Source: an uncultured Candidatus Saccharibacteria bacterium (GTDB taxonomy: Bacteria > Patescibacteriota > Minisyncoccia > Phycocordibacterales > PALSA-1337). From it: DNA of 64,000 nucleotides. The position numbers and the translations under genes are program-made. The notes beneath the pieces were generated by a model. That model was not told where the DNA came from and searched no databases. It saw nothing but the letters and a program-made list of their open reading frames with translations. The stretch spans positions 39,477 through 103,476 of the forward strand of contig CAZBVQ010000001.1 of NCBI GenBank assembly GCA_964495685.1. The letters run 5' to 3'. How positions within the stretch are numbered: position 1 is the first letter of the stretch; each line of letters begins with the position of its first letter. Below, piece by piece: positions 960 to 41,692 of this stretch.

Positions 960-973
960 TACTTATTACTTCC

Positions 974-1297: not shown

Positions 1298-1617
1298 AAC
1301 AGAAAATAATCCCCAGCGTCAATTGCTTTTTGTACGGGGATAGCGGTAGTATGCGATCAGGAGATATATGTTCAAGCACGTAAATCTCTAAGCAATATCT
1401 CGGTGCGTGATGCACCAAGCGAGGTAGAGTCCCGAGGATAATTCCAGTACGCGACGCCGAAGCGTGGCAACCAAAATGTCCTTAGCACTATACCCAAACC
1501 TGGGAAGGCCATTGCTTAGAGGTTTGCGAGCTCGAACAATGAAAAACGCGACTCGGGAAGAGTTCGCATTCGAGTTATTGTATTGATAGACTGTACCTAT
1601 GGGCTTCCATAGGTTCG

Positions 1618-2655: not shown

Positions 2656-2714
2656 GTGATAAATTCAAATAGAAAGTGTATAGTTAGTTTATATTTATTA
2701 ATCAAACCAATCCC

Positions 2715-3245: not shown

Positions 3246-3250
3246 TATCT

Positions 3251-3559
3251 TTACTCCTCCCACCTGTCCCCGAACGGATTGATCTCCTCTCCATCCAAGC
3301 TCACCTCATCGGAGAGCTCGTCTTCTTCTGCGGAACCCAACAGGGGGTCTACTTCTGTTTTATCTTCAACTCCTACATCAGCTTCCGGCTCATCGATCTC
3401 GATCGGCTTCTTCACTTTACTAGGAATGACGTCGGTTTCCTTCTCTTCATGCTCGACCTCTTCTTCGACATGTTGCTCTTCTGTAGCCGGAGCAACCTTC
3501 TTCTTGGATTTTACTGTTTTGGGTGCAGTTTTCTTGGTGGCCGTTACCATGTTCGTCAA
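3251..3559 (-). CDS. hypothetical protein, Lys-rich N-terminus and highly acidic C-terminus
   Basis: 102-aa ORF with no recognisable domain. Compositionally biased (K-rich then E/D-rich). Confidence 0.4.
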   Translation of the reverse strand: MTNMVTATKKTAPKTVKSKKKVAPATEEQHVEEEVEHEEKETDVIPSKVKKPIEIDEPEADVGVEDKTEVDPLLGSAEEDELSDEVSLDGEEINPFGDRWEE

Positions 3560-3792
3560 TAATTAATTTCTATGCAGACAGTTGTAACAAAGATGTTGCC
3601 ATTTGGCAACAAACTTCCCCTGTGGACAACCCGCGAGCATGCGAGCGGAGCCGTCCTCGTATGAGGGCAACCCACGAGCATGTCCCCCCACAACACAATC
3701 TCCCCCTGACAAGCCGAAAATGTAGCCAGCGATCAGAGCTTTGAGGCTTGGAAGGGGTGAATTATGTTGTGGGGGTGCCTATTGATAATCCC

Positions 3793-4272
3793 CTATCGCA
3801 TACATGCGCTGTGAGTAATGGCCGCCGCAATCGCATCATACTCATCGTCGACTGTTTTCTTGATTGGCAACGACACAAGCAGTTTGACCATTTTGATCAT
3901 CCGCTCTTTGTCGCTCGTACCATCGCTTGTTATGGCGACTTTTATTTGCATCGGTGTATATTCATAGATAGCGACATTCCGCCTGATCGCTTCAGCAAGA
4001 ATGACGCCGCGTGCTTCCGCTACCCGCATAGCTGTTTTTTGGTTCTTGGTTATGAAAAGTGTCTCTATCGATAACGCCTCGGGCTTGAATTCATCCAACA
4101 CTCGACCAACCTCATTCGAAATGAGTCCGAATCGTTTGTAGATGCTATCTTTGGGCGAAGTTTGGAAACAGTTTGAATAGAGGACACACTCCTTACCTGG
4201 AGCAGTGCGCTCGATAACCGCTATACCGAGACGATCATATCCTGGGTCGATGCCGATAATACAGGTAGCCAT
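3793..4272 (-). CDS. ruvC: crossover junction endodeoxyribonuclease RuvC
   Basis: An MATCIIGIDPGYDRLGIAVIE-type N-terminus (catalytic Asp). Start trimmed to the internal ATG at 4272 to avoid overlap with the PBP1A start. Confidence 0.85.
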   Translation of the reverse strand: MATCIIGIDPGYDRLGIAVIERTAPGKECVLYSNCFQTSPKDSIYKRFGLISNEVGRVLDEFKPEALSIETLFITKNQKTAMRVAEARGVILAEAIRRNVAIYEYTPMQIKVAITSDGTSDKERMIKMVKLLVSLPIKKTVDDEYDAIAAAITHSACMR

Positions 4273-4323
4273 ATGTGCATTATATATGATATCGTCAGCC
4301 GATAATACGCTATAATAGAAGCC

Positions 4324-6852
4324 ATGTCGCACCATCGCAAAAAGCACCGACACGTCAAACGCCTCGTTGCACTCCTCTTTTCGCTCGGATTCATCTGTCT
4401 GGGTATTATTGCTTTGTGGGTCGCCACCCTCAAAATGCCCGACTTGACCTCATTCCAAAATCGCAAAGTCGTCGAATCTACCAAAATTTATGATCGTACT
4501 GGGGAAATACTTCTTTATGATACAGGCAAAGATGCCAAGCGCACCGCGGTAGCACTCGATCAGATTTCACCCCTCATACAGACGGCAACCATTGCCATAG
4601 AAGACTCTGATTTCTATACCAACATCGGCATTGAACCAAAATCAATCGCTCGCGCCATTCTTGCCAACCTTACTACAGGAGGATATGGCCAAGGTGCATC
4701 TACAATTACCCAGCAGGTAGTCAAAAACTCTCTTCTCACCACAGACAAAACCATAACCCGCAAAATCAAAGAATGGGTCATCGCCATCAAACTCACTCGC
4801 GTTATGCCCAAGAAAGACATCCTCGAGACGTATCTCAACGACACTTCATACGGCGGGACGATCTTCGGTGTCGAAGAGGCCAGTCGCGCATTCTTCGGCA
4901 AACCCGCCAAGGACGTATCTCTCGCCGAGGCGGCTTATCTCGCCGCAATCCCCCAGGCACCCACGTACTATTCACCTTACGGGACGCATCGTGAGGCACT
5001 CGACAATCGCCACAAACTGGTACTACAGCGCATGAAAGACCTGAACAAAATAACTTCATCAGAGTATGACGCCGCAGTCAAAGAAAAAGTTCAGTTCCTT
5101 TCGAAAAATGACTCTTCCATTCGTGCCCCCCATTTCGTTATGTACGTCAAAGATGCGTTGACGCAAAAATACGGTGAGGACGCCGTTTTGAGTGGTGGAT
5201 TGCGGGTTATTACCACTCTCGATTTCGGTATGCAACAAAAAGCCGAAGAGGTGATCACCACATTTGCCCCTTCACTCGAGAATAATTTCAATGCAAGTAA
5301 TACCGCCATGGTCGCCATCGACCCCAAAACTGGCGACATTCTCACCATGGTTGGTTCTCGAGATTATTTCAGCAACAAAATAGAAGGAAACTTCAATATC
5401 ACTCTCGCACGACGTCAGCCCGGCTCGACATTCAAGCCCTTCGTATATGCGACAGCATTCAAAAAAGGCTACACCCCCGAAACTGTCCTGTTTGATGTTC
5501 CCACACAGTTCTCACAATACTGTAACCCTGATGGTAAGCCGAAAAAAGAAACTGATGACCCAGAGAAGGTCTGCTACTCACCTGACGAATACGACCACGA
5601 ATTTCCTGGCCCTATGAGCATACGTGAAGCCCTAGCGCACTCCCGCAACATTCCCGCCGTCAAAACCCTATACCTGGCCGGCCTTCGAGACTCTCTGCAA
5701 ACCGCCGAAGACATGGGTATCACTGGCCTAGATGACCCAAATAGATATGGTCTCACCCTGGTTCTTGGTGGAGGTGAGGTGTCTCTTCTTGAGCTCACCA
5801 GCGCATATGGCGTCTTCGCACATGATGGTCTGCGCAATCCGTACCGATCAATCCTCCGTGTTGAAGATGGTCGTGGTACCGTTCTGGAAAGTGCCCCCCT
5901 TCCTTCCCCTGCACAAGCACTGCAACCTGAGATCGCTCGACAAATCACCAGCATTCTCTCTGACACCTCTGTGCGCATGGACAGTCTCAAGCCCATTGGC
6001 GACAGTATTGGCCGTCCCGTAGCAATCAAAACTGGTACCACCAACGATTATCGTGATGTGTGGGCAGTAGGATATACACCCAACTTAGTTGTTGGTGCTT
6101 GGGCTGGCAAGAACGACAACACCCCTATGCAGCACAATGTTGCGGGTCTTATAATCGCCCCCGTTTGGGGCGCCTTCATGTCTCAGGTCGCCCAGAGCTT
6201 CCCTCTAGAAAGTTTCCAGTCTCCTCCACCCCCACTCTCAGACAACAAACCTGTGCTTCGTGGTGTGTGGCAAGGTGGTGAATCATATTGGAAAGACAGT
6301 GTTTCTGGTAAGTTGGCGACGGAATATACCCCCGCAGAAACAAGAAAAGAGGTGGTGTTCAATAATGTTCACTCAATTCTTCACTGGGTAAACAAAGACG
6401 ACCCACGCGGTCCTGCCCCAACAGATCCGAAACGAGATTCTCAGTATGATTATTGGGAGTATGGGGTACGTACATGGTTCGACACCTACCAAAAAAACCA
6501 TTCTGAGTTCAAAGAGACATCTTCCATATCGATACCCACCCAAAGTGATGATGTACACGTACCAGGCAAGTTGCCTACTATTTCTTTTGCCTCACCTTCC
6601 GCAGGAACCAGTATAGGAACCCACGACAACTTGAACATACACCTTCAATTATCTGGTGCATATCCAGTGCAAAAAACCGAGGTGTATCTCAACGGTAAGT
6701 ATGTCCTTACCTCTGAGCGAGACCCTCTCAATATTTCATTCTTCCCTTCTGATGTCGGAGTCGTTTCAGAAAACAACACTCTGTCTGTGCGGGTATATGA
6801 CAGTGTATTCAATAAAGTAACCGCTTCGACCACATTCTCAGTGCGACAATAG
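4324..6852 (+). CDS. class A penicillin-binding protein 1A (transglycosylase + transpeptidase) with about 200-aa C-terminal extension
   Basis: N-terminal TM anchor; GT51 motifs (EDSDFY, QGASTITQQ); transpeptidase motifs SxxK (STFKPF), SxN and KTGT (KTGTTND). Confidence 0.9.
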   Translation: MSHHRKKHRHVKRLVALLFSLGFICLGIIALWVATLKMPDLTSFQNRKVVESTKIYDRTGEILLYDTGKDAKRTAVALDQISPLIQTATIAIEDSDFYTNIGIEPKSIARAILANLTTGGYGQGASTITQQVVKNSLLTTDKTITRKIKEWVIAIKLTRVMPKKDILETYLNDTSYGGTIFGVEEASRAFFGKPAKDVSLAEAAYLAAIPQAPTYYSPYGTHREALDNRHKLVLQRMKDLNKITSSEYDAAVKEKVQFLSKNDSSIRAPHFVMYVKDALTQKYGEDAVLSGGLRVITTLDFGMQQKAEEVITTFAPSLENNFNASNTAMVAIDPKTGDILTMVGSRDYFSNKIEGNFNITLARRQPGSTFKPFVYATAFKKGYTPETVLFDVPTQFSQYCNPDGKPKKETDDPEKVCYSPDEYDHEFPGPMSIREALAHSRNIPAVKTLYLAGLRDSLQTAEDMGITGLDDPNRYGLTLVLGGGEVSLLELTSAYGVFAHDGLRNPYRSILRVEDGRGTVLESAPLPSPAQALQPEIARQITSILSDTSVRMDSLKPIGDSIGRPVAIKTGTTNDYRDVWAVGYTPNLVVGAWAGKNDNTPMQHNVAGLIIAPVWGAFMSQVAQSFPLESFQSPPPPLSDNKPVLRGVWQGGESYWKDSVSGKLATEYTPAETRKEVVFNNVHSILHWVNKDDPRGPAPTDPKRDSQYDYWEYGVRTWFDTYQKNHSEFKETSSISIPTQSDDVHVPGKLPTISFASPSAGTSIGTHDNLNIHLQLSGAYPVQKTEVYLNGKYVLTSERDPLNISFFPSDVGVVSENNTLSVRVYDSVFNKVTASTTFSVRQ

Positions 6853-6978
6853 TTGTATGGGTATGTCCCTTCACACTATAATTCCTCCCTTCCAAGCCTC
6901 AAAGCGCTGATCGCTGGCTACATTTTCGGCTTGTCAGAGAGGAATTATAGTGTGAAGGGATGTGTTCTTACCACCCCA

Positions 6979-7230
6979 TCACTTAATATGTGTTATCACC
7001 ACGTTCTGTTGTTGTGTGTTAATGTCCCTCAAAATTAACGTTCTTTTGATGAATAGTTGTGACTTGAGTGCCGCTGGAACATTTCGCGTCACTATCTCTC
7101 CCGCTTTACGTTCGAACATCACTGTGGCCCCTGTGTGTTTCTCGATAACCTGTTGAATCAGTGCGTGCAAAAAGGCCTCCTGGCCGTGCTTATTTTGTAT
7201 CCGCTTGAAAAATTGTCCTATGTTGAGCAT
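6979..7230 (-). CDS. small DUF721/DciA-like protein (putative replicative helicase loader)
   Basis: 83-aa ORF 6 nt downstream of dnaN on the same strand. The pattern EKHTGATVMFERKAGEIVTRNVPAALKSQLFIKRTLILRDIN resembles the DUF721 consensus. Confidence 0.4.
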   Translation of the reverse strand: MLNIGQFFKRIQNKHGQEAFLHALIQQVIEKHTGATVMFERKAGEIVTRNVPAALKSQLFIKRTLILRDINTQQQNVVITHIK

Positions 7231-7235
7231 GGTCC

Positions 7236-8342
7236 TTACCTGTTCATTGGCATAACAAGATAGAGAAACGTCTGGTCTCCCGATACAGGCTTGATTATCA
7301 CCGGCCTATTGAGTCCGTTGAGTTGCAAACTGACACTGTCTGCGTGTATGGACTGAAACCCATCGATAAGGTATTTGTAATTGAAATTGATCTCCATTTT
7401 CTCACCAGTAAGTGCCGCATCAATATTGGTTTCATTCTCACCAATATCACTGTTTTTTGTTTGTATCTCGAACACTTTCCCTTTTGGGTCTATAGTGAGA
7501 TGAACTTGATTGAATTTGTCCGAAAAGATGTTGGATATTTTGAGCGCGTTCAGAATATCTTGCTTGAGCGCCACAACCTCAGTTGTGGCTGATTTGGGGA
7601 TGATCTGTCTATAGTCAGGAAACACTCCATCAATAACTCGGGATACGATGTACGTGTCTTCATTCTCGAACGTGATGAGGTTCTTATTTGAATTAACCGT
7701 AGCTGTATTTTGGAAGCTACCAAGTACCCGAATAATGTCTTGGGTGTTTTTGTACGGTATCAAAACGTCATGTAGTTTGTTTGTGCTTGCTGTTTTGATC
7801 TTTTTTTCTGCAAGGCGGAATGAGTCTGTGGCCACAAACGTCAGATATTCCCCGTCTTTGTATATATACACACTAGAAAGCTCTGGTTTGACGCTTGAGA
7901 TAGCGGCACTATAGAAGACCGCGGTAAGTCCCTGTATCAGGTCTTCTGGTGACATGGTGTATTTCTGACCATCTTGGATTTTTGGGATGCTTGGGAAATC
8001 TTCTGGGGGTACTGTTTTTATGACCCCTTTTGATTTTGTTGTTTTTATATGAAGATTCCCCGAAACAAGCTCAAGAATAACTGTTTGACTCTGTTCTTGC
8101 ACTTGAGACAAGAATGATGCCAGAGTTTGCGCGGGCACAGCGACAACGCCTTGAGCATCTGTTTTTGCAGGAATAGTAACCTCTACACCCACATCAAGGT
8201 TGGTCGCTTTGAGTGTAATAGTGTTTTTCCCCACTTCTATGAGGATACAAGCGAGAACTGGTAGTGTTTGGTGCTTACTCGCAACACGATCCACTAGGCC
8301 GACGGCATCTTTGAGTTTTTTGAGGTTGAGTTCGATCTTCAT
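7236..8342 (-). CDS. dnaN: DNA polymerase III beta sliding clamp
   Basis: 368 aa with a typical DnaN N-terminus (MKIELNLKKL...VLACILIEV). Adjacent to dnaA. Confidence 0.95.
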   Translation of the reverse strand: MKIELNLKKLKDAVGLVDRVASKHQTLPVLACILIEVGKNTITLKATNLDVGVEVTIPAKTDAQGVVAVPAQTLASFLSQVQEQSQTVILELVSGNLHIKTTKSKGVIKTVPPEDFPSIPKIQDGQKYTMSPEDLIQGLTAVFYSAAISSVKPELSSVYIYKDGEYLTFVATDSFRLAEKKIKTASTNKLHDVLIPYKNTQDIIRVLGSFQNTATVNSNKNLITFENEDTYIVSRVIDGVFPDYRQIIPKSATTEVVALKQDILNALKISNIFSDKFNQVHLTIDPKGKVFEIQTKNSDIGENETNIDAALTGEKMEINFNYKYLIDGFQSIHADSVSLQLNGLNRPVIIKPVSGDQTFLYLVMPMNR

Positions 8343-8572
8343 ATAAGATGTGTTTTTATTTGAATAAGCAAACCTATCATCATTAAGACTGTGGATATGT
8401 TGAAAACTTAATATATATCAACAAATCCAAAAGGTTTTATGAGAACCAACACACAGATTATATGGTAACAAGCAGGGACAACATTCTTTACTTATAACCT
8501 ATGTGTATAAAACAACAAGTTACCCACACACATATCAACGAAACCCACACGCTACCCACAGGATTATCCCCA
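8343..8572. promoter_or_regulatory. candidate oriC (dnaA-dnaN spacer), AT-rich with DnaA-box-like 9-mers
   Basis: Near-consensus boxes relative to TGTGGATAA/TTATCCACA: TGTGGATAT (8390-8398), TGTGTATAA (8502-8510), TTACCCACA (8520-8528), CTACCCACA and TTATCCCCA (8551-8573). Also AT-rich runs. Confidence 0.5.
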
Positions 8573-9940
8573 TTACAACATGGTGCGCACCTGAGCGATC
8601 TCTTGGGACAAGAGTTGATCGGTCTTCACTTCCTCTCGGACCTTCTCATACGAGTGGATAACGGTCGTATGGTCTCTACCACCCAACTTCTCCCCTATTG
8701 AAGGGAAAGATATACCGAAATCCTCCCGCAAGATATACATCACTACCTGACGAGGACGCACAACCTCCTTGCGACGGGTCTTGTTGTAAATACTGTCCTC
8801 ATCAATGTTGTAGAAGTCTGAAACAACCTTGACTACATCCTTTACGGACATCATTTTCTTTGGTTTCAGGTTGTTTTTGAGGATGTTACGGATCTCATTG
8901 AGGTTGAGCTCTCTGTTTTTGAGTTGTGTTTGGCAAGCAATAACATTGATAATACCCTCAATTTCACGGATATTGTCTTCTATAGAAGAAGCAATGTAAT
9001 CAGTCACCTCGTCCGACAAGGTGATATTGTGTGCACCACACTTGCTCCGCACGATCATAATACGAGATTCTTGGTCCGGCTCAGGTATGTCCACAATCAT
9101 ACCCATAGAGAAGCGGCCCCGGAGACGATCTTCAAGACCAGGAATGGTGTTGGGGTGCTTGTCACCAGAAAATACCAACTGACGTGAGGTGTCGTGGAAT
9201 GTATTAAAGAAGTGGAAGAGCTCCTCCTGAAACTTCTCCTTACTAGCAAAGAACTGCACATCATCCATGATAATAACGTCATATTTGCGATATTTGTCCT
9301 TGAAGGCCTGGACCCTACCCTCTTGGATAGCCGCGAAGAACTCTGAGCCGAAACGTTCAGATGTCAGATAGAACACCTTTTTGTCTGGGTGAAGCTTCTT
9401 GATTTGATTACCGACAGCTTGAATGATGTGGGTTTTGCCGCGGCCAGTTTGGCCATAGATGAAAAGGGGGTTGTATGATTGTCCGGGAGCTTTGACGACC
9501 ATCTGAGAAGCGGCATGGGCAAGTTCGTTGAAAGGGCCCACAATAAGGGTCTCGAATGTGTAGCGAGGATTGAGGTTGTCGTCTTTGTTCACATAGAAAT
9601 CTTGGAGTGGCATAGCGATTGTGGGTGCTGACACCTGTTCCTTGCGGGAGTGGCCGCCACCTTTGCCGTCTTCGCGGACAACAACGTATTCTAGAGCACG
9701 AACACGCTCATTCATCTGCCTCAAAATGCGCAAAATCGAGTTGTGGAACTTCTTCTGGAGCCATTCATGGGTGAAAGAGTTGGGCACTCCCAGATAGATG
9801 ACACCCTCATCCTCGCGGAGAATCTTGATATCTTTGAACCATGTAGAAAAGTTGGCTTGCGATACGGCACTTTCGATCTCGAGTAAAGCAGTTTGCCACA
9901 TTTTTCCGTGATCATTCATAGATAGTGAATTTAGTACCAC
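8573..9940 (-). CDS. dnaA: chromosomal replication initiator DnaA
   Basis: GQTGRGKTHIIQAVGN Walker A, the DnaA AAA+ box VII and a C-terminal DNA-binding domain. GTG start at 9940; an internal ATG is possible. Confidence 0.95.
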   Translation of the reverse strand: MVLNSLSMNDHGKMWQTALLEIESAVSQANFSTWFKDIKILREDEGVIYLGVPNSFTHEWLQKKFHNSILRILRQMNERVRALEYVVVREDGKGGGHSRKEQVSAPTIAMPLQDFYVNKDDNLNPRYTFETLIVGPFNELAHAASQMVVKAPGQSYNPLFIYGQTGRGKTHIIQAVGNQIKKLHPDKKVFYLTSERFGSEFFAAIQEGRVQAFKDKYRKYDVIIMDDVQFFASKEKFQEELFHFFNTFHDTSRQLVFSGDKHPNTIPGLEDRLRGRFSMGMIVDIPEPDQESRIMIVRSKCGAHNITLSDEVTDYIASSIEDNIREIEGIINVIACQTQLKNRELNLNEIRNILKNNLKPKKMMSVKDVVKVVSDFYNIDEDSIYNKTRRKEVVRPRQVVMYILREDFGISFPSIGEKLGGRDHTTVIHSYEKVREEVKTDQLLSQEIAQVRTML

Positions 9941-10010
9941 TAAGTATATACCTGTTTATAATTTTGCAAACTTGTGGAGGGTAAAAAAATATGTTGATAA
10001 GGTGGGGATA

Positions 10011-10126
10011 GGCCACCACAACACACAGGCACCACAATTCACCAGCAACAGAATGGTGTACGGAACATTTGTACACCACATCCTAACCTTGCTGGTGAAT
10101 TGTGGTGCCTGTGTGTTGTGGTGGCC
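10011..10126. repeat. perfect 38-bp inverted repeat (arms 10011-10048 and 10089-10126) with 40-nt spacer in the dnaA-rpmH intergenic region
   Basis: Left arm GGCCACCACAACACACAGGCACCACAATTCACCAGCAA; the right arm is its exact reverse complement. The spacer carries a nested GGTGTAC...GTACACC palindrome. It causes the mirrored ORF pair 9956..10162 / 9972..10178. Confidence 0.9.
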
Positions 10127-10183
10127 CCTAGAAAGTCGTAGGAACTTGATGAAAATCAACAAATATGTAATAGTATGATAACT

Positions 10184-10318
10184 ATGTCATTCACATACGC
10201 CCCCAAGAAACGAAAGCGAGCACGAACACATGGATTTCGTGTACGCATGAAGACGACCTCTGGTCGCAAGGCTCTTGCTCGTCGTCGTACCAAAGGACGC
10301 CGTCGCGTGGCTGTATAA
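10184..10318 (+). CDS. rpmH: 50S ribosomal protein L34
   Basis: Translates to [44 protein letters not shown]. Below the ORF-track length cutoff. Immediately upstream of rnpA. Confidence 0.9.
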
Positions 10319-10319
10319 T

Positions 10320-10655
10320 ATGTTGCCCCGTTCACAGAGACTCTCTGCTGAAGAACTCAACACAGTTATGGAAAAAGGAAGAGTTACCCACTCTTCCCTT
10401 TTTCTCATACGCTCACTTCCTGTAACAACAGGCACAAAAATAGCCGCAGTCGCCCCCCAGAAAATATTCAAAACAGCTGTTGCTCGTAGCAACACTCGTC
10501 GCCGGATATACAACAATCTTCCGAAAGGCGGTTTCGTTGGACAGAGATCGCAGCACATCGTTCTCGTTGCAAAACCAGCGATTATTGATGCTGACAGCAA
10601 AGCAATCCAAGAAGATACCAAGGCACTTTTTGTGAAAATAGGCATTCTGCGCTAG
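10320..10655 (+). CDS. rnpA: ribonuclease P protein component
   Basis: Basic 111-aa protein following rpmH in the conserved rpmH-rnpA-yidC order. Start set at the ATG at 10320, overlapping the rpmH stop. Confidence 0.85.
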   Translation: MLPRSQRLSAEELNTVMEKGRVTHSSLFLIRSLPVTTGTKIAAVAPQKIFKTAVARSNTRRRIYNNLPKGGFVGQRSQHIVLVAKPAIIDADSKAIQEDTKALFVKIGILR

Positions 10656-11396: not shown

Positions 11397-11403
11397 CTAT
11401 ATG

Positions 11404-11429
11404 AAAAAGGGGGCCACAGCCCCTTTTTG
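11404..11429. terminator. bidirectional intrinsic terminator hairpin (AAAAAGGGGGCCACAGCCCCTTTTTG)
   Basis: GC stem flanked by an A-run and a T-run between convergent yidC and the 11443..12756 gene. Confidence 0.55.
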
Positions 11430-11442
11430 TTGTTAGTACTTG

Positions 11443-12756
11443 TTACTTCAGATCATACGACCATAATGACAGGTCGTTTTTGTTCATGAAGAAGATGAAG
11501 TCGTCTCGATCATCGAGGCCGAGGTTGTAGGCGTCTATAACACGATCTGAAGCGTCTACGATCGAAGAAATCAAGTGTACCTCGTTGGTTGACGCGTTGA
11601 CCTGCCATAGTTTGTCAACGAAAGAGGTGTCGCCACGATACCAATCATCGGGATATGTTCCTGGAATAGGTTGTGATGGGACGGCACAATAGACCACGTC
11701 CTTGTAGGTATTACCCCAAGCACATTTGTCTGCAAGGGTGCGAATGACGGCATCAGTCCCCTTTCGCTTGGTCACATCATAAATACTCGAGACAACATTG
11801 TCAGAACTTCCTGCTGCCGAAATGAACACCTTCTTGGCATCAGTGCTGACTTTGGTGCTCAGTCCAGGCAAAGGTCCAAGAATTTTCTTCCACACACCGG
11901 TTTTGGTGTCAACGAAATAAAGATACCCACGTTCACTGGCGGCACCCTTGGTGGTGATGGCGATGGTCTGGTCTTCGGGCCACTCAGCATTGACTTGGGT
12001 GAGTGGTGTGACGAACAGCTGGGTCGGGGATGAACCGTCGAACTTGAATATATAGCCGACCCCCACACCTTTCTCTGATAGAAGCATAAATACACGGTCT
12101 TTTTTGGGCGATACCGCATATGTCAGGATCGTGCTCGGTAGATTCTTGCCGCGCAGTTCGTAAGGGGTCAAGGAAGTGAGCGCTACCTGGGGTGTCGAGG
12201 TGCTTGCCTTGGGCATGATACGTGCACGGAGTTCGGCCCATATGCCAGAAATGGTATTGGCATCAGATATGCCGAAGGCCATGAATGAGGTGAGGTTCTT
12301 GTTCCACAAACTCTCGTACATTTTGGGCACAACGGTATTGGATATAGTTGTAATGTCGAGCGTATTGCCGCGGGCTTCATATACATTACCGCGACCGCGG
12401 TCGAGCCAACGGACGACAGTGGTGCTACTGGCGATCGGAGTCTTGACAGTGCCTGTAGTGCTTGCGCCATATCCAGAGACTGGAGTGTTACTGAGAAGAC
12501 GCAAAGCGGGAATCTTGAGTTGGGTACCGGTGGCGGTGGATGCACGCGTTGTGGTGGCGGGCTGAGTCGATGTTGAAGTGGCGCTTGATCGTGGGCCTCC
12601 CCTATCGAAGGGCGAGAAACCTCCCTGGTCAGGCGTCTCGGTGACCGGGGTATCTATACTTGTTGTATCACGCAAGAAAAACTGCCAGTATGCCAAAGCG
12701 ACGATGATGACGATGACGATGAATGCTATGAAATAGTGGAGGGTTTTGCGAGTCAT
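11443..12756 (-). CDS. hypothetical membrane-anchored protein with Ser/Thr-rich linker (last gene of the T4SS-like operon)
   Basis: N-terminal TM helix, low-complexity STSTQPATTTRASTATGT linker, beta-rich C-terminal region. Confidence 0.5.
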   Translation of the reverse strand: MTRKTLHYFIAFIVIVIIVALAYWQFFLRDTTSIDTPVTETPDQGGFSPFDRGGPRSSATSTSTQPATTTRASTATGTQLKIPALRLLSNTPVSGYGASTTGTVKTPIASSTTVVRWLDRGRGNVYEARGNTLDITTISNTVVPKMYESLWNKNLTSFMAFGISDANTISGIWAELRARIMPKASTSTPQVALTSLTPYELRGKNLPSTILTYAVSPKKDRVFMLLSEKGVGVGYIFKFDGSSPTQLFVTPLTQVNAEWPEDQTIAITTKGAASERGYLYFVDTKTGVWKKILGPLPGLSTKVSTDAKKVFISAAGSSDNVVSSIYDVTKRKGTDAVIRTLADKCAWGNTYKDVVYCAVPSQPIPGTYPDDWYRGDTSFVDKLWQVNASTNEVHLISSIVDASDRVIDAYNLGLDDRDDFIFFMNKNDLSLWSYDLK

Positions 12757-12761
12757 TATAT

Positions 12762-14087
12762 TTACTGTATTTTCAAACTTTTTAGCTTCTGCCTAGCCTC
12801 AGTTGCTTTTTGCACTAATTGTTGGCATAGGGCAGGGTCACTAACACTGCTCGAGCAACCATTAACTACGGTATTAATTTGATTCTGTGCATACCCAACG
12901 GCCTCATTTAAAGTTCTCGCATTGCTTGACTGGTACCACCAAGCAACTGGCCCCCATAGATCTTTGTCATTAATGACCACTTGTGTTGCGTAGGCAACCT
13001 GAGTGTTTATTTGCTCGAGCTTGTTTGAGTAGTTTGTATAATCTTCCAAGGACTTTAATTGATTCGGAGCTGCTCCGATCGCTATAAGGGCAGCACGTCT
13101 TGTCTGATATTCACTATTCAAATCAGTACTTAGTTGTTCAGGGGTTTTGTTTGCTATTGATCCAGTAGAAGGGTCACTGTCCAAAACTCTTTGATTTATA
13201 GCGGCTTTTGCAACAACCAAGAGAGCATTTGCTTGCTCGTCTCTTATTGCCGCATCCTGTGCCAGTATTTGAGTGGCAATACTCCGAGCGTCCGATCCCA
13301 ACCCAGACGACCGATTTGCAAGGGCTAGGCAGGGGTCTTTATATGGGGCGCCGGAATTTTGTTGTAATAGTAAAGGATCACTGACAGATATATTCGCCGT
13401 CAACTGATCACACAAAGATTTTTTTCGTTCTTCTAGTGTTGAAACGATTTGTTGGGATTTTGCCAAATCTTGTTTGGCTGATTCAACGCTTGTATGAAAT
13501 TCCGACATTGTCTTTGTAAGTTGTCCAAAAAAAGTAGACGCCGACGATGAGACACAACGACTATCCGTTACGGATAGTTCACGATTACTCGCACAGCGTA
13601 TATCTATCGGCGTTACCAATGTGGTCGGTATTTGCACTAGTCGCGGGTCAATCGTCCGCAGTATCAAATATGAACACAGTATAAGAACGAGTCCATAAAC
13701 TGCATTCTTAAGCTTTTCGAGCCCAGCGCTCTTTTGGTTGTAAGAATCTGAACTCATATATTCGAAGCCGCCCCAGACAATCATAAACACGGCCAATACG
13801 GCCGCCAATGCAATAACCAAATTGAATGCATACTGAACATAATTCTCGAAATTAATAGACGTCATCTGGGTGTTACCTCCACAGGTGATGGCCGGAGTTA
13901 CAACTTCTCCCCTCTCGTTCTGTACGGCCGCACTTTCGATACAAGGCAGGGGTTCCAAAAGTGTATACTCAACTTGCTTCTCTTGGGCGAACACAAACGG
14001 TGTCGACATTATGAGTACACCGACGAATAATGCCGTACAGATGACACTGAGTAGCCAGATATATTTTTTATTGAAAGTGTATGTCAT
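12762..14087 (-). CDS. VirB2/TrbC-like pilin domain protein with about 300-aa C-terminal extension
   Basis: Signal peptide, then two hydrophobic helices separated by a short charged loop (YAFNLVIALAAVLAVFMIVWGGFEYMSS ... NAVYGLVLILCSYLIL), as in TrbC/VirB2 pilins. Long coiled C-terminal region. Confidence 0.4.
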   Translation of the reverse strand: MTYTFNKKYIWLLSVICTALFVGVLIMSTPFVFAQEKQVEYTLLEPLPCIESAAVQNERGEVVTPAITCGGNTQMTSINFENYVQYAFNLVIALAAVLAVFMIVWGGFEYMSSDSYNQKSAGLEKLKNAVYGLVLILCSYLILRTIDPRLVQIPTTLVTPIDIRCASNRELSVTDSRCVSSSASTFFGQLTKTMSEFHTSVESAKQDLAKSQQIVSTLEERKKSLCDQLTANISVSDPLLLQQNSGAPYKDPCLALANRSSGLGSDARSIATQILAQDAAIRDEQANALLVVAKAAINQRVLDSDPSTGSIANKTPEQLSTDLNSEYQTRRAALIAIGAAPNQLKSLEDYTNYSNKLEQINTQVAYATQVVINDKDLWGPVAWWYQSSNARTLNEAVGYAQNQINTVVNGCSSSVSDPALCQQLVQKATEARQKLKSLKIQ

Positions 14088-14089
14088 AT

Positions 14090-15100
14090 CTAAAACGTAG
14101 TTGCATTAGTTTCTTTTTGGTTTGAAAAAATAACCGAAAACCCAGAAGTTGCCCCTTGCAGTATACGTTCTGTGCTTCCGATATTCAGACGAACCTGAGA
14201 GGTTCCAGAAGATCCTTCGGGTGCACGGAGGATAACAGATTTTTTTGATGATAGAGTGTCCCTCTTGAGATTGTTTATACCCCAATTCCATTCGGTTTCA
14301 GGAGTGTCCACAGCATTAAAACCAAACGGAACACCAAAGACGGTCACCTCTTTTTGTTGACCCACGTATACAGTATTGGTGATTGAACGATTGAATAATG
14401 GACCATACGTGGCATCATCAACGTAAAATCCAATAGAAGGTGTACCACTTTGAACCGATGCATACGCTACGGCGGAGGCGCTGTTGTCGCGGGGCCAAAC
14501 AGTGACCGATATGTCGTAAGGTCGTGGGACAACGTCTCCTGCTATCAGTACATATTGTTTGCCGTACCCAGACTGATCCTCAATAACACGACCATTCTTT
14601 TTCCATTGGTATACAAGAGACGATGGATCATATTCTATCCCTGCTGAATTTGCCACGTGCGCTATAGCGGCAATTTTAATAGTGTTTTGGTATACAGGAG
14701 AGAGTTTGCCTCGGAAGAAAGGGGGCGTGTATCCATCAGTCTCAAATACTAGATCGACAAAACCAGACCCTAAGGTGAAGGAATTTTTTATGACTGTGCC
14801 GTCCGTATTGACCGCGGTGACCTCTATTGACATTTTTTTGCCTAGAATCGGAGCGATAACCTCGAGCGATGTAGCACCTGTCGCACTGCGCACCACCTTA
14901 CCATCAACAACCCAAGTAACCTTTGCGGCATTGATATCAATAGTGTAACTACGTGCGGTAATGGTGACCGTCTGTCCTGGTACAGGATTGTCTGTCGACG
15001 GGGATAGCTCGAGGCCGCCTGTCACTGATATTTGGGCGTGGGCGGACGAAAATACAAAGAAATAAGACAGGAATACAACTAGAAATAGGCGCGATTTCAT
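14090..15100 (-). CDS. hypothetical secreted beta-rich protein
   Basis: Signal peptide MKSRLFLVVFLSYFFVFSSAHAQ when started at the internal ATG at 15100. Repetitive beta-strand (Ig-like) sequence. Confidence 0.5.
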   Translation of the reverse strand: MKSRLFLVVFLSYFFVFSSAHAQISVTGGLELSPSTDNPVPGQTVTITARSYTIDINAAKVTWVVDGKVVRSATGATSLEVIAPILGKKMSIEVTAVNTDGTVIKNSFTLGSGFVDLVFETDGYTPPFFRGKLSPVYQNTIKIAAIAHVANSAGIEYDPSSLVYQWKKNGRVIEDQSGYGKQYVLIAGDVVPRPYDISVTVWPRDNSASAVAYASVQSGTPSIGFYVDDATYGPLFNRSITNTVYVGQQKEVTVFGVPFGFNAVDTPETEWNWGINNLKRDTLSSKKSVILRAPEGSSGTSQVRLNIGSTERILQGATSGFSVIFSNQKETNATTF

Positions 15101-15158
15101 TGTCCATATTTTACCACGGAGCCAGAACGTAGTCCTCGTGGTATTCGGGGATAAATAA

Positions 15159-15626
15159 CTATCCTTGAGCTGGTAGGCCCCCGTTAGGAGCGCGCACTCC
15201 CGCCCCTTCCCCACCATTCAAGGGTTCTCTGGGTCGGGGTTCTCGGCGCCCATTGAAGTTGAGCATGGTTTTTGCTGAGCCAATCTGTTTTCCTTGTGAT
15301 AGTGGCTTGATCACAGAAACACCAGCTTTGTCCTCAATTCGAGTGATGAGTATTATGGCTATTATCCCGGCAGTTACTTCGATAGGTAATTCCTGCACGA
15401 CGGGTATAAGTGATGCAACCCAAGAAATAGCCATGGCGGCCAACTTTCTACCATTGAACAGGCCCAGGCCCTTCGTCCAACCATATAGGGCGAAGAATAT
15501 CCAAAACAATGAGGCCGTAATATCCTTTGCAAAAGGGATCAATCCTATCAGGTCAGCAATAAATGCAAGGGCGATCAGTATGACTACCATTGCCGTCCCT
15601 ATTCTATATTTCGGCTTGTTCACCAT
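15159..15626 (-). CDS. hypothetical small polytopic membrane protein
   Basis: 155 aa, about 3 TM helices, Gly/Pro-rich C-terminus. Lies between the VirB4-like ATPase and the secreted protein. Confidence 0.5.
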   Translation of the reverse strand: MVNKPKYRIGTAMVVILIALAFIADLIGLIPFAKDITASLFWIFFALYGWTKGLGLFNGRKLAAMAISWVASLIPVVQELPIEVTAGIIAIILITRIEDKAGVSVIKPLSQGKQIGSAKTMLNFNGRREPRPREPLNGGEGAGVRAPNGGLPAQG

Positions 15627-15641
15627 GCCGTTAGTATACCA

Positions 15642-17456
15642 CTATCCCGCCTGTTCCAGCTGTTTCTTTGCATCCTTGATGGCCAGTACCTGTGCAGGAT
15701 TGGTGGTGATGATCTGGTCTTCTGTATATGACCCGACGACCTTGATAGCCACGTGTTTGAGCCCTACGAAGAATATGCCCTCCCCTACATCAGATTCGAG
15801 CAAGAGATACTTCTCCTCGTCGGTTAGGTTGAATGTTTTCTGGATATGGTCGATGACTGTCGGAGATTGTTTGAGCAAGATCTGGATGGATGAGTTGGTC
15901 ACGATAGGCATACCATACGGAGAATTCAAGAAGTCATCCACGTCTTGTGTGATAGTCGAGAGGCCCAAGAAATATTTGCGACCACGCTTGGCTAGGCCGA
16001 ACAAGAATGAGGCGGTGTCCTCTGACTTCATCATCCACCACGCCTCATCGATGACCAAGAGGCGACGCTTCAAATTCTTGCGAATAGCGTTCCATATATA
16101 GTGAGTGACGATATACATGGCCACTGGCTTGAGCTCATCCTCCATGTCGCGGAGGGAGAAAACCACGAATTTCTTATTGATATCGACATTCGAGGGACGA
16201 TTGATGAAGCCGGCCCAAGTACCCTTGGTATATTTGGACAGACGTTGGACCAGAGAGTCGCCGCCTTCCATTCCTGCCAATACCAGCTCGAAGTCTGAGA
16301 GCAGTGGTGGCTCTACGGTGCGGAAATCGGCCTCAGGTGTAATATCCTTGAGAGCGTATGTCTCACTGATAGCACGATCGATGATGGCGTCCTCTTCTTG
16401 GGTCAGGCCACCAAGCATGATGCGGAAGAGACCGACGAGGTTGATGATGTTGGAGCGGAGGACGTCAGCTGCAGACTCATCTTCACGGGGAATCGGTAAG
16501 TCGAACGGGTTGATATGGTGTTCGGAGTTGAGCGAGATGTTGAAGTACTTCCCTCCTGTGGCCTCAGCCATGTACTCATATTCTTTTTCGGGGTCAATGA
16601 CGATGACGTCAGTATCGAACATGAGGGTGCGTAGAATCTCGAGCTTGGTCGTATATGATTTACCAGCACCAGCAGTAGCGAAGGTGACGGAGTTGTAGTT
16701 TTCGAGGGAGAAACGATCGAACAAGACAAGTGATGAATTGTGGCGGTTGATACCGTACAGGATACCCTTGTCTGATGTAAGGTCGAATGATACGAATGGA
16801 AATAGTGATGAGAGTGGCGAGGAATTGAGCTTGGAATGGACAGTGAGCTGGTCGTCGGCAATGGGAATAACTGATTTGAAGCCTTGTTCCTGCTGGAATA
16901 GAGCCGGTTTGACGTACACGAGCTTGGATTCAAGAATGGATTTGATTTCGGATTCAAGCTTATCGAGCTCACCTTCTGAGTCGGCAAACAAAGTGATGTA
17001 CACACCTACGTCGAAGAGGTGTTCTTGTGCCTGCATCAATTGGTCACGGAGCTGTTCGAGGTCTTGGTATGCAGTATCCAGCGCTGGATCACGGACGAGG
17101 CCCTTGTCTTCCCTGCGCGAGATCTGACTCTGGACTTCAGCCACCTTCTTCTGGAAATGGCGCAGAATCTTTGCCGTATCTACTGGGTGGATGAATATTG
17201 ATATGTTAAAAATTTTGTCGAGGTTGATGATGGGGGCAAACCAGCTCTCATCAAGGAAGCGCGGGTATGAAATAACGAATAGAGTGCGCCCCACCTTCTC
17301 GCCAAGATTGAGATCCTTGGGACTTATTTTGAGAGCTGATGGTGAAATGACGTCTTTGAGCTCCAAAACACCGGCCTGATATATTTCTTCCGGCAGAATA
17401 GAAACGATCGGGGATCGCTCATCTTTCTTGCCGAATAAAGTGCTTAAGAATGACAT
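15642..17456 (-). CDS. VirB4/TrbE/CagE-family T4SS ATPase, C-terminal ATPase part
   Basis: Walker A TFATAGAGKSYTTK, Walker B LLVIDEAWWMM and VirB4 signature blocks. Starts 1 nt after the stop of the upstream ORF (TAAcATG). Confidence 0.85.
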   Translation of the reverse strand: MSFLSTLFGKKDERSPIVSILPEEIYQAGVLELKDVISPSALKISPKDLNLGEKVGRTLFVISYPRFLDESWFAPIINLDKIFNISIFIHPVDTAKILRHFQKKVAEVQSQISRREDKGLVRDPALDTAYQDLEQLRDQLMQAQEHLFDVGVYITLFADSEGELDKLESEIKSILESKLVYVKPALFQQEQGFKSVIPIADDQLTVHSKLNSSPLSSLFPFVSFDLTSDKGILYGINRHNSSLVLFDRFSLENYNSVTFATAGAGKSYTTKLEILRTLMFDTDVIVIDPEKEYEYMAEATGGKYFNISLNSEHHINPFDLPIPREDESAADVLRSNIINLVGLFRIMLGGLTQEEDAIIDRAISETYALKDITPEADFRTVEPPLLSDFELVLAGMEGGDSLVQRLSKYTKGTWAGFINRPSNVDINKKFVVFSLRDMEDELKPVAMYIVTHYIWNAIRKNLKRRLLVIDEAWWMMKSEDTASFLFGLAKRGRKYFLGLSTITQDVDDFLNSPYGMPIVTNSSIQILLKQSPTVIDHIQKTFNLTDEEKYLLLESDVGEGIFFVGLKHVAIKVVGSYTEDQIITTNPAQVLAIKDAKKQLEQAG

Positions 17457-17457
17457 G

Positions 17458-18533: not shown

Positions 18534-18597
18534 CGTACTCTATTATATCCTATAGCGTCGAGTCCGGATATGTGGAAGGTGTCAGTGGGCCGTACGT

Positions 18598-32244: not shown

Positions 32245-32413
32245 TGCTCACATTATATCCTACTGTGCCCATTCGACAAAAAGGGTGCCGTAAAACACCC
32301 GTACCTACACATGCGCACGCGCTTCGATGAACAGATCTTGGCACTCACTTGGCGTACCACAACGTCACCTTCATTGAGGCACGTGCGCAGGTGTGGGTAC
32401 GGGTGTTTCCCTT

Positions 32414-41243: not shown

Positions 41244-41265
41244 CACGTGAAGCATTCTATAAACC

Positions 41266-41643: not shown

Positions 41644-41692
41644 TAGGTGAGGTAGACCTTTCTGGTATACACGTGCTAGTATGAGCCAATCG

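What the first reader, a model, noticed from the sequence alone, without database searches (positions are those of the whole stretch)
10011..10126. Perfect 38-bp inverted repeat (116-bp cruciform-capable element) between dnaA and rpmH
Two exactly complementary 38-nt arms flank a 40-nt spacer that itself holds a nested palindrome (GGTGTAC/GTACACC). The element sits in the divergent promoter region of dnaA (start 9940) and rpmH (start 10184), a classical oriC/regulatory location.

Perfect repeats of this length are rare and unlikely by chance. Possible roles: a replication-origin unwinding or hairpin element, a transcriptional insulator or attenuator between the two divergent genes, or a MITE-like insertion (no obvious target-site duplication was seen).
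Basis: seen in the sequence. Interest (0 to 1): 0.55.

Follow-up and report, generated by a model that had tools for sequence, protein, structure and literature searches.

The report
Mobile-type perfect hairpin insertion beside dnaA
The perfect 116-bp hairpin between dnaA and rpmH is real, but it is not a conserved origin part: it is a lineage-specific, MITE-like palindromic insertion, one of a class in this group of tiny-genome bacteria whose arms stay perfectly complementary while their sequence changes fast.

Summary
Arms 10011-10048 and 10089-10126 are 38 nt and 100% complementary, with a 40-nt loop holding a nested 8-bp hairpin. k=31 contigs from five other samples break exactly 30 nt inside each arm, so it is not an assembly artefact.

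It is not a conserved origin or regulatory element. Among 128 related Ca. Taylorbacteria/Paceibacterota loci with the same divergent dnaA/rpmH layout, most spacers are 95-165 bp and lack any hairpin, including close relatives. Eighteen loci carry a perfect long inverted repeat in the same slot, between a conserved DnaA-box pair and the rpmH promoter, but with unrelated arm sequences. Similar hairpins sit at operon ends.

Cores (loops) recur between sites and species while arms differ. Arm differences are always mirrored in the partner arm. One family shows strain-level insertion polymorphism with 8-bp target duplications. The outer arm motif CCACCACAACACAC of this element is shared with a three-copy hairpin family in the same genome.

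Best reading: a MITE-like palindromic insertion in a permissive slot, with arms kept perfect by DNA-level copying, most plausibly replication template switching. No target duplication or second copy was found for this element in 81.5 kb. Its function is probably nil or incidental.

The parts
10011..10048 (+). Left arm of the perfect inverted repeat (38 nt). It contains an internal 16-nt imperfect tandem: CACCACAACACACAGG / CACCACAATTCACCAG.
10049..10088 (+). 40-nt loop (core). It starts with CAG and holds a nested 8-bp hairpin, TGGTGTAC (10054-10061) with GTACACCA (10071-10078). It resembles the loop of an element at a different site in relative L007.
10089..10126 (+). Right arm, the exact reverse complement of the left arm.
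10013..10026 (+). Terminal motif CCACCACAACACAC, mirrored at 10111-10124. It is shared 13/14 with the outer arms of copies 2 and 3 of the three-copy hairpin family of this genome. CC[AC]CCACAACA occurs five times in 81.5 kb, only at hairpin termini (my estimate of the chance expectation is about 0.08).
9992..10000 (-). DnaA box (TTATCAACA, one mismatch). It is the first of a box pair conserved in relatives. In minimal 95-bp spacers it overlaps the rpmH -35.
10003..10011 (-). Second, degenerate DnaA-box-like site (TGGGGATAG on the + strand). The hairpin begins at its last base. The same box is followed directly by the rpmH -10 region in the empty site of L005.
9943..9970 (-). Promoter-like site for dnaA (TTTGCA, 16 nt, TATACT), conserved in relatives. 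The hairpin lies upstream of it.
10146..10174 (+). Inferred rpmH core promoter (TTGATG, 17 nt, AATAGT), about 10 nt before the ATG. It is conserved as CTTGATR-N17-WATAGT in relatives. The hairpin lies 20 bp upstream of its -35.
   Evidence: Sequence reading plus the alignment of spacers. It falls below the threshold of the scan.
8573..9919 (-). dnaA coding sequence (448 aa).
10184..10318 (+). rpmH (ribosomal protein L34, 44 aa).
8343..8572 (.). dnaA-dnaN spacer: four DnaA boxes with at most one mismatch, plus 77-80% A+T stretches. This is the more likely seat of oriC. Context only, not part of the element.
6866..6960 (.). Sister hairpin element, copy 1 of a three-copy family. The other copies are at window 3685-3775 and at L183 8167-8266, just outside the window start. 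The ~70-nt core is near-invariant and the outer arms differ between copies in a mirrored way.
32293..32408 (.). Another hairpin of identical overall size (116 bp; 39-nt arms 87% complementary; 38-nt loop starting CAG) in an intergenic gap. Possibly a decayed member of the same class.

Best explanation
The 116-bp element is a non-coding, palindromic, MITE-like insertion specific to this species lineage. It occupies a permissive slot between the conserved DnaA-box pair upstream of dnaA and the core promoter of rpmH.

The slot and the presence of perfect hairpins recur across the clade (Ca. Taylorbacteria / Paceibacterota, Patescibacteria), but the sequences differ. The elements turn over: cores (loops) move or persist, while arms are rebuilt. 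Arms are kept perfectly Watson-Crick complementary by a DNA-level copying process, most plausibly replication template switching within or between the arms. This process homogenises and extends arms and can invert the loop.

Shown:
- The element is real.
- It is an insertion relative to close relatives.
- The clade-wide class exists.
- Arm differences are mirrored in the partner arm.
- Cores are shared between sites.
- One family makes 8-bp target duplications.
- This element shares its terminal motif with a multi-copy family in the same genome.

Inferred:
- This particular element arrived by transposition.
- Template switching is what keeps its arms perfect.
- It has no essential function. 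At most it distances the rpmH promoter from the DnaA boxes, or forms hairpins on single-stranded DNA during replication.
For: **Insertion, not a conserved part.**
- Spacers in 128 non-redundant related loci peak at 95 bp. Only 18 loci carry a perfect IR of at least 20 nt there.
- L005 (92% DnaA identity) has the empty site ...GGTGGGGATAG|TCTGCTATAGT, and L013 (92%) has an unrelated hairpin after the same box.

**Class behaviour.**
- Perfect IRs with arms of at least 26 nt occur at 0.76/kb in these spacers, 0.195/kb in other intergenic DNA, and almost never in genes.
- A second slot after yidC is occupied in 12 of 102 loci.
- 28 of 44 long IRs in the first set of loci are perfect.

**Cores shared, arms different.**
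- The two elements of L013 share their loops at 88-91% identity.
- The same holds for L012 post-yidC versus the L081/L143/L155 spacers.
- L081 versus L143: loop 56/56 identical, arms 65% identical with every change mirrored, dnaA only 86.6% identical.
- The window's own three-copy family behaves the same way.

**Mobility.**
- L012 and L092 are 98.2% identical, yet carry a 139-bp hairpin at points 49 bp apart.
- Each strain shows the other's empty site, and the 8-bp duplications are GATAATTC and AACATTTC.

**Link of this element to a multi-copy family.** The terminal motif is shared 13/14; 9-36 of 1000 shuffles reach the score. The motif is found only at hairpin termini in 81.5 kb.

**Loop similarity.** The loop resembles that of an element at another site in L007; 0 of 200 shuffles reach the score. 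The two also share a mid-arm ACACAKGC motif and the same geometry.

**Mechanism.** There are no G-T-type mismatches in hundreds of arm base pairs, although the inner hairpins of the family C cores (relatives, not this window's loop) tolerate G-U. Template switching is documented to create, perfect and maintain hairpin stems (PMC8794818, PMC5941160).
Against: - No target-site duplication flanks this element; only 2 of 52 hairpins have one.
- No second copy of the whole element was found in 81.5 kb of the same genome, about 12% of the longest contig of 700,686 bp.
- There is no exact arm 20-mer in 185,579 reference genomes, and no exact arm 20-mer or 23-nt loop segment in viral contigs.
- No transposase appears among the genes called in the fetched flanks.
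- Similarity to the L007 element is limited to the loop and one short arm motif.
- Four spacer hairpins (window, L009, L010, L030) start with a similar ACACA..AGG stretch right after the DnaA boxes. This could mean vertical descent or local origin rather than independent insertion.
- The roughly four-fold enrichment in this slot over other intergenic DNA could reflect selection for a hairpin here.
Confidence: 0.6

Rival explanations
1. The palindrome arose locally and is not mobile. A small seed hairpin next to the DnaA boxes was extended outwards by successive replication template switches that copied one flank onto the other. The element arose in place, and similar events happened independently in relatives.
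For: - There is no target duplication and no second copy.
- The outer left arms of the window, L009, L010, L091 and L030 hairpins share ACACA..AGG or CACCACA at the same position. Some empty sites also have ACACA there.
- The two tandem hairpins of L030 share the inner arm and loop but have different outer arms.
- Template switching can make a perfect stem in one event (PMC8794818).
Against: - The terminal motif is shared with a dispersed three-copy family in the same genome.
- Cores are shared between different sites and species.
- A sister family shows clear transposition with 8-bp duplications.
- About 134 bp is new relative to L008 and L005, far more than one arm.
Confidence: 0.15
2. The hairpin is a selected DNA-level regulatory or topological element. 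It could be a cruciform or hairpin that absorbs the negative supercoils made by the two divergent promoters. It could also be an array of weak DnaA sites (five CACCACA motifs) next to the strong boxes, tuning dnaA/rpmH expression or initiation.
For: - The slot is enriched about four-fold over other intergenic DNA.
- Seven spacer hairpins begin within 0-5 nt of the last DnaA box.
- Perfect pairing persists through extensive divergence.
- The arm termini contain CCACAAC, as does the clade's extended DnaA box.
Against: - The hairpin is absent from 110 of 128 relatives, and its sequences are unrelated where present.
- The same kind of hairpin occurs at operon ends, where this role makes no sense.
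- By established knowledge, a 40-nt spacer makes cruciform extrusion from duplex DNA kinetically unfavourable.
- Most relatives' arms lack any CCACA motif.
Confidence: 0.12
3. The element is a structured RNA: a small RNA, or a long 5' leader of dnaA from a distal promoter. The conserved loop would be functional and the stem would only need to pair.
For: - In a sister family, the loop core has 9 of 18 pairs with compensatory changes and tolerates G-U on one strand.
- A weak promoter-like site on the minus strand at 10190-10162 points into the hairpin.
- The loop hairpin differs from that of L007 by two double changes that keep pairing (my reading of the alignment).
Against: - No Rfam family reaches its threshold; only generic hairpin models match, far below gathering score.
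- The arms never use G-U, which argues for DNA-level rather than RNA-level maintenance.
- The element lies upstream of both conserved core promoters.
- The promoter-like match is no more than shuffles give.
- No expression data are available.
Confidence: 0.06
4. The hairpin is part of oriC, acting as an unwinding or initiation element.
For: It lies next to dnaA and to two DnaA boxes, and the cumulative GC-skew minimum falls at roughly 10-12 kb.
Against: - It is not conserved, even among close relatives.
- It is richer in G+C than its surroundings.
- Minimal spacers of 95 bp leave no room for an unwinding element.
- The denser box cluster and the AT-rich DNA are in the dnaA-dnaN spacer.
Confidence: 0.03
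5. The repeat is an assembly artefact, a palindromic misjoin.
For: None beyond the general suspicion that attaches to perfect palindromes in metagenome assemblies.
Against: - It is flanked on both sides by conserved unique sequence.
- It is identical in an independent assembly.
- k=31 contigs from five other samples break exactly where a true inverted repeat forces them to.
- Analogous hairpins appear in assemblies from many groups and assemblers.
Confidence: 0.01

Closest known systems
Bacterial MITEs and palindromic intergenic elements (Correia/NEMIS of Neisseria, ERIC, RUP, Rickettsia palindromic elements). The comparison rests on my own knowledge of these families.
   Same: - It is about 100-150 bp, non-coding, and folds into a long hairpin.
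- It sits in intergenic DNA near promoters or operon ends.
- It is present or absent between close relatives.
- It shares a terminal inverted-repeat motif with other copies in the genome.
- A sister family makes fixed-length (8-bp) target duplications.
   Different: - Arms are perfectly complementary along their whole length and differ almost completely between family members, whereas the loop is the conserved part. This is the reverse of typical MITEs and REPINs.
- Copy number is low.
- There is no target duplication at this copy, and no cognate transposase has been identified.
Quasipalindrome correction and template-switch mutation (PMC8794818, PMC5941160, PMC7202029)
   Same: Arms are perfect Watson-Crick pairs. 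Multi-base differences between orthologous or paralogous copies are mirrored in the other arm. Loop inversion and arm extension are seen.
   Different: The documented cases concern short stems (a few to about 10-20 bp) in genes and RNA genes. Here 26-45-nt arms stay perfect across species that differ by about 13-15% in dnaA nucleotide sequence.
REP / REPIN elements mobilised by RAYT transposases (my own knowledge)
   Same: Hairpin-forming intergenic doublets of about 100 bp, often at operon ends.
   Different: REPINs have conserved arms (with a GTAG motif) and variable spacers, and occur in tens to hundreds of copies with a RAYT gene. None of this is seen here.
T-shaped terminal hairpins of parvoviruses (flip/flop ITRs; my own knowledge). 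A resemblance in form only.
   Same: In the sister 'family C', a long perfect stem is capped by two small hairpins, and the loop orientation can be flipped relative to the stem ends. Stem perfection is expected if one arm templates the other.
   Different: These elements are chromosomal and internal, not termini of a linear replicon. No Rep/HUH gene is seen. The window's own element has a single nested hairpin, not two.

Membership tests
MITE (non-autonomous DNA transposon) | Short (<~300 bp) and non-coding | tested here: met
   116 bp. Only spurious ORFs cross it.
MITE (non-autonomous DNA transposon) | Terminal inverted repeats | tested here: met
   38-nt perfect arms. The outer 14 nt are shared with another hairpin family of the genome.
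MITE (non-autonomous DNA transposon) | Target-site duplication flanking the element | tested here: not met
   No direct repeat of at least 6 nt lies within 6 nt of the arms. The feature is met for a sister family in L012/L092, with 8-bp duplications verified against empty sites.
MITE (non-autonomous DNA transposon) | Multiple copies in the genome | tested here: inconclusive
   It is single-copy in the 81.5 kb read. The related three-copy family shares its terminal motif.
MITE (non-autonomous DNA transposon) | Presence/absence polymorphism with intact empty sites in relatives | tested here: met
   Empty sites exist in L005, L008, L006, L011 and L007. No strain of the same species without it was seen in the five Logan samples whose contigs reach the repeat.
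MITE (non-autonomous DNA transposon) | A cognate autonomous element or transposase with the same termini | not tested
   No transposase domain appears among the genes called in the fetched flanks. The full genome was not searched.
oriC component (unwinding element or DnaA-box array) | Conserved in position and kind among relatives | tested here: not met
   Absent in 110 of 128 loci, and unrelated in sequence where present.
oriC component (unwinding element or DnaA-box array) | AT-rich unwinding region adjacent to clustered DnaA boxes | tested here: not met
   Arms are 55% G+C and the loop 45%, against about 44-46% locally. The box cluster plus 77-80% A+T DNA is in the dnaA-dnaN spacer.
Intrinsic terminator | Short GC-rich stem with a small loop, followed by a T-run | tested here: not met
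   No terminator-like site lies in 9800-10350. The genome does use ordinary terminators, for example at 11397-11442.
Known structured RNA family (Rfam 15) | Match at or above the family's gathering score | tested here: not met
   Only tRNAs are found in the window. Generic miRNA-precursor models score 19-46 bits against thresholds of 59-245. There are no hits in 13 related loci.
REP/REPIN | Conserved arm sequence across many copies, plus a RAYT gene | tested here: not met
   Arms are unrelated between elements and copy number is low. RAYT was not seen but was not searched for exhaustively.
Template-switch-maintained inverted repeat | Differences between related copies are mirrored in both arms, with no G-T intermediates | tested here: met
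   L012/L092 show 4 mirrored substitutions. L081/L143 and L009/L010/L091 arms are 53-66% identical and all perfect. The window's three-copy family behaves the same way. For the finding's element itself, only invariance in two divergent strains could be seen.

The most novel reading that the evidence does not exclude
These hairpins may be an undescribed kind of small mobile element of Patescibacteria. In this reading a conserved structured core (in one family a T-shaped junction with covarying hairpins) is the heritable, mobile unit. The long stem is regenerated or extended from one arm at each replication or transposition, by fold-back or template-switch copying. That would explain perfect, fast-evolving, mirrored arms, flip/flop loops, and the usual lack of target duplications. 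The slot next to the dnaA DnaA boxes would be a preferred landing or retention site.
Probability: 0.2. Interest if true: 0.7.

Novelty: new variant of a known kind. Interest (0 to 1): 0.45.

Why it matters
For genome annotation, a perfect palindrome beside dnaA should not be read as an origin feature without comparative evidence. Here it is dispensable and lineage-specific.

More broadly, these tiny, streamlined CPR genomes tolerate and keep renewing long perfect palindromes at a few permissive intergenic slots. These include the promoter region of the replication initiator gene.

The pattern of conserved cores with perfectly complementary but rapidly changing arms, insertion polymorphism between near-identical strains, and loop inversions offers a natural system for studying how template switching or hairpin-templated copying shapes DNA. 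It also hints at an uncharacterised mobile-element biology in a phylum where I found no description of such elements in the searchable literature.

Tried and rejected
**Searches that found nothing**
- An exact arm 20-mer search in 185,579 reference genomes gave no hit.
- The arm 20-mer and a 23-nt loop segment gave no hit in viral contigs.
- Rfam at gathering threshold found only tRNAs. At a permissive threshold only generic hairpin (miRNA precursor) models matched, far below their cut-offs. It found nothing in 13 related loci.
- Exact look-ups of rpmH (44 aa and 47 aa versions) are not on record.
- Extending the genome by 17.5 kb beyond the window ends gave no further copy of the element.

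**Searches that gave less than hoped**
- The DnaA 90% cluster has no strain-level relative. All members are 8-12% diverged, so I could not see microevolution of this exact element.
- The metagenome scan with DnaA gave no same-species contig.
- The covariance model of the sister 'family C' core found only its seeds plus a weak L014 hit, and none in the window. Nine viral hits to its GC hairpin scored 22 bits or less and are chance.
- A global alignment of the window's element with L007, L009 and the second window hairpin showed similarity only in the loop and short motifs.

**Tests that were negative or inconclusive**
- The TSD scan was negative for 50 of 52 hairpins, including this one.
- I tried to test whether arms derive from the local flank at the post-yidC junction. 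The junction sequences are too diverged to tell.

**Ideas considered and rejected**
- Terminator: no T-run, and the element lies between divergent genes.
- Invertible promoter switch: the 40-nt spacer is too short.
- attC, REP/REPIN and CRISPR-like readings: the anatomy does not fit.

Full report
**1. Observation**

The region 10011-10126 contains two 38-nt arms that are 100% complementary, separated by 40 nt. The arm sequence occurs nowhere else in the 64-kb window at up to 3 mismatches, and no shuffle produces a match. As single-stranded DNA the element folds into one long hairpin of -57.3 kcal/mol, z = -12.4. The loop holds a nested hairpin, TGGTGTAC with GTACACCA. Each arm contains an imperfect 16-nt tandem.

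Pfam confirms the neighbours. dnaA (8573-9919) and dnaN lie on the minus strand. rpmH (10184-10318), rnpA and yidC lie on the plus strand. The exact 448-aa DnaA starting at the ATG at 9919 is in public collections, on a longest contig of 700,686 bp.

**2. The repeat is not an artefact**

An independent ENA metagenome assembly is identical across the element. Logan assemblies use 31-mers. One Logan contig, from a strain with 6 differences in 3.1 kb, ends at 10040. Four contigs from four other samples start at 10097, and one of them differs at 24 of 4300 positions. Both break points lie exactly 30 nt inside an arm. That is the point where the first 31-mer wholly inside the arm becomes shared with its reverse-complement copy. 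The inverted repeat therefore exists in the reads of at least five other samples. No contig spanning an empty site was seen.

**3. Organism and comparative set**

Protein-guided scans returned dnaA loci from Ca. Taylorbacteria / Paceibacterota MAGs (Patescibacteria), with DnaA identity of 53-92%. After removing duplicates, 128 loci have the same divergent dnaA/rpmH arrangement.

The spacer from start codon to start codon is 95 bp in the largest group. It is mostly 95-200 bp, and a minority reach 245-1236 bp. In the window it is 264 bp, that is 148 + 116.

The minimal spacer reads as two back-to-back promoters. A conserved pair of DnaA boxes (TGTTGATAA and GTGGATAA-like) overlaps the rpmH -35.

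**4. The key result**

Close relatives have no hairpin. L005 (92% DnaA identity) reads ...TGTTGATAAGGTGGGGATAG|TCTGCTATAGT..ATG. L008, L006, L007 and L011 also lack one. L013 (92%) has a different perfect hairpin after the same box (26-nt arms, 57-nt loop).

In all, 18 of the 128 loci carry a perfect inverted repeat of at least 20 nt in this spacer. Arms run to 45 nt and loops from 1 to 110 nt. The sequences are unrelated except within small subclades, and L030 has two in tandem.

The window's hairpin starts at the last base of the second DnaA-box-like site. It ends 20 bp before the inferred rpmH -35 (TTGATG-N17-AATAGT, conserved in relatives). It therefore lies upstream of both core promoters.

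**5. The slot is not unique**

Perfect IRs with arms of at least 26 nt occur at the following densities:
- 0.76/kb in the dnaA-rpmH spacers;
- 0.195/kb in other intergenic DNA;
- almost never inside genes.

A second slot, the convergent junction after yidC, is occupied in 12 of 102 loci. In the window that junction holds an ordinary GC-stem/T-run terminator, so the long hairpins are not the clade's normal terminators. A third slot follows dnaN. In the first set of loci, 28 of 44 long IRs (arms of at least 20 nt, at least 82% paired) are perfect.

**6. Anatomy of the class: conserved cores, variable mirrored arms**

Loops are shared between elements whose arms differ.
- The spacer and post-yidC elements of L013 share their loops at 88-91% identity.
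- The post-yidC element of L012 shares its loop with the spacer elements of L081, L143 and L155 and others.
- The two L030 elements share inner arm and loop, with the loop inverted.

The contrasts between related genomes are the strongest evidence.
- L081 and L143 are 86.6% identical in dnaA. Their loops are 56/56 identical. Their arms are 65% identical with indels, and both hairpins are perfect.
- L009, L010 and L091 have near-identical flanks. Their arms are 36, 41 and 45 nt, 53-66% identical, and all perfect.

One core, 'family C', forms two small hairpins on top of the long stem. Nine of its 18 predicted pairs show compensatory changes, and it tolerates G-U on one strand. The long arms never show a G-T-type mismatch. 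This points to DNA-level rather than RNA-level maintenance of the arms.

**7. Mobility**

L012 and L092 are 98.2% identical over 10.9 kb. They carry a 139-bp hairpin at positions 49 bp apart, and each strain provides the other's empty site. The inserts are flanked by 8-bp duplications: GATAATTC, and AACATTTC where the empty site reads AACATTGC. The two copies differ at four arm positions, all mirrored. This is classical transposition. Only these two of 52 hairpins show such duplications, against a control mean of 0.75.

**8. Placing the window's element**

- **No TSD, no second copy.** It has no target duplication and no second copy in the window or in 17.5 kb beyond its ends.
- **Loop.** Its loop resembles that of an element at the post-yidC site of L007. 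Zero of 200 shuffles reach the score. Both loops start CAGAAYGGT, and the nested stem differs by two double changes that preserve pairing. Both elements carry ACACAKGC at the same distance from the loop and have similar geometry, 38/40 versus 36/36.
- **Terminal motif.** Its outer arm CCACCACAACACAC matches CCCCCACAACACAC at the outer arms of copies 2 and 3 of another hairpin family of the same genome (9-36 of 1000 shuffles reach the score). That family has copies at window 3685-3775, 6866-6960 and L183 8167-8266.
- **Motif specificity.** CC[AC]CCACAACA occurs five times in 81.5 kb, only at these hairpin termini. My own estimate of the chance expectation is about 0.08.
- **Sister family behaviour.** That family again has a near-invariant ~70-nt core and mirrored differences in its outer arms.

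**9. The origin question**

DnaA boxes with at most one mismatch cluster in the dnaA-dnaN spacer. There are four in 8343-8572, together with 77-80% A+T stretches. Across 119 loci this spacer averages 2.76 boxes, against 1.66 upstream of dnaA. The hairpin is richer in G+C than its surroundings. The GC-skew minimum is nearby, but at a resolution of several kb. Nothing ties the hairpin itself to initiation.

**10. Mechanism**

The data fit a two-part model.
- **(a) Arrival.** Small hairpin elements insert into, or persist in, the few intergenic slots these compact genomes can spare.
- **(b) Maintenance.** Their arms are homogenised, extended and sometimes flipped by replication template switching. 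This mechanism is documented to create perfect stems in one event, to repair stems, and to favour perfect over imperfect repeats (PMC8794818, PMC5941160).

Outward extension of the arms would also erase target duplications. For this element, part (a) rests on the shared terminal motif, the loop similarity and the behaviour of sister families. Part (b) rests on relatives. Both are inferences for this particular copy.

A cruciform in duplex DNA is unlikely with a 40-nt spacer (established knowledge). Hairpins on single-stranded DNA are plausible.

**11. Known families**

No Rfam family matches. A full-text search found no description of MITE-like elements in Patescibacteria. The closest known kinds are bacterial MITEs and palindromic intergenic repeats, and template-switch-maintained quasipalindromes. 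This class differs in three ways: the loop is the conserved part, the arms are long and perfect yet fast-changing, and copy number is low.

**12. Verdict**

The feature is real and non-random, but it is not an origin or attenuator element. It is best read as a lineage-specific MITE-like hairpin insertion in a recurrently used slot (confidence about 0.6). The element itself is of modest interest. The clade-wide pattern deserves follow-up.

Noticed in passing
window 32293-32408: A second hairpin of exactly the same overall size (116 bp). It has 39-nt arms that are 87% complementary and a 38-nt loop that also starts CAG. It lies in the gap between two minus-strand genes. It may be a decayed relative of the finding's element, but loop similarity to the finding is not significant.
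   Followed up: partly
window 6866-6960, window 3685-3775, and L183 8167-8266 (about 0.8 kb before the window start): A three-copy hairpin family, all within about 8 kb on the dnaN side of dnaA. It has a near-invariant ~70-nt core containing GCGCTGATCGCTGGC, and outer arms that differ between copies in a mirrored way. Related cores occur in L023, L025, L033, L020 and L106.
   Followed up: partly
L012 10859-11017 versus L092 10859-11062: Insertion polymorphism of a 139-bp perfect-arm hairpin between strains that are 98.2% identical. The 8-bp target duplications are GATAATTC and AACATTTC. The loop orientation is flipped relative to the asymmetric 3-4-nt ends (AACA..CTCC versus GGAA..TGTT).
   Followed up: yes
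L081 4396-4511, L143 4770-4879, L155 4809-4916, L012/L092 3360-3489, L163 3537-3651, L011 2099-2237 (weak: L014 4760-4887): The 'family C' core is a T-shaped junction: a long perfect stem capped by a 4-bp GC hairpin with a tetraloop and a 9-10-bp AT-rich hairpin with a conserved AGCAG loop. Nine of 18 pairs show compensatory changes, and G-U is tolerated on one strand. It has no Rfam match and is absent from the window.
   Followed up: partly
window 9920-10183 and the 95-bp spacers of e.g. L049, L052, L059, L066: The minimal dnaA-rpmH spacer looks like two back-to-back promoters with very short leaders. A DnaA box forms the rpmH -35 (TTGATA-N17-TATACT), which implies DnaA could co-regulate rpmH. 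In the window, a diverged duplicate of the core (9969-9994 versus 10143-10168, 73% identical) supplies a separate rpmH promoter.
   Followed up: partly
L029 4871-4927 (= L047), L105 4863-4920, L010 7937-7982, L041 3521-3564: Perfect palindromes with almost no loop (arms 21-28 nt, loops 0-2 nt) sit in the same slots as the looped hairpins. The L029/L047 palindrome and the rpmH-proximal ~150 bp of the spacer are identical, although dnaA differs by 8%.
   Followed up: no
window 11397-11442: An ordinary bidirectional intrinsic terminator (AAAAAGGGGC-TGTG-GCCCCCTTTTT) lies between yidC and the convergent 437-aa gene.
   Followed up: no
window 25733-25896: An inverted repeat (30-nt arms 90% complementary; 21 nt perfect; 104-122 nt between) lies inside a 696-aa ORF on the minus strand. 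It also contains a strong internal hairpin.
   Followed up: no
window 38744-38832: An inverted repeat with 23-nt arms (96% complementary) and a 43-nt spacer lies between convergent genes. Weaker complementarity continues into the flanks.
   Followed up: no
window 11443-21413 (L085 genes at 1-8477): A cluster of type IV secretion-like genes (T4SS pilin, TraG/VirB4-like ATPase, TraC-like, PrgI-like) lies immediately beyond yidC. Four tRNA genes lie at 40582-43077.
   Followed up: no
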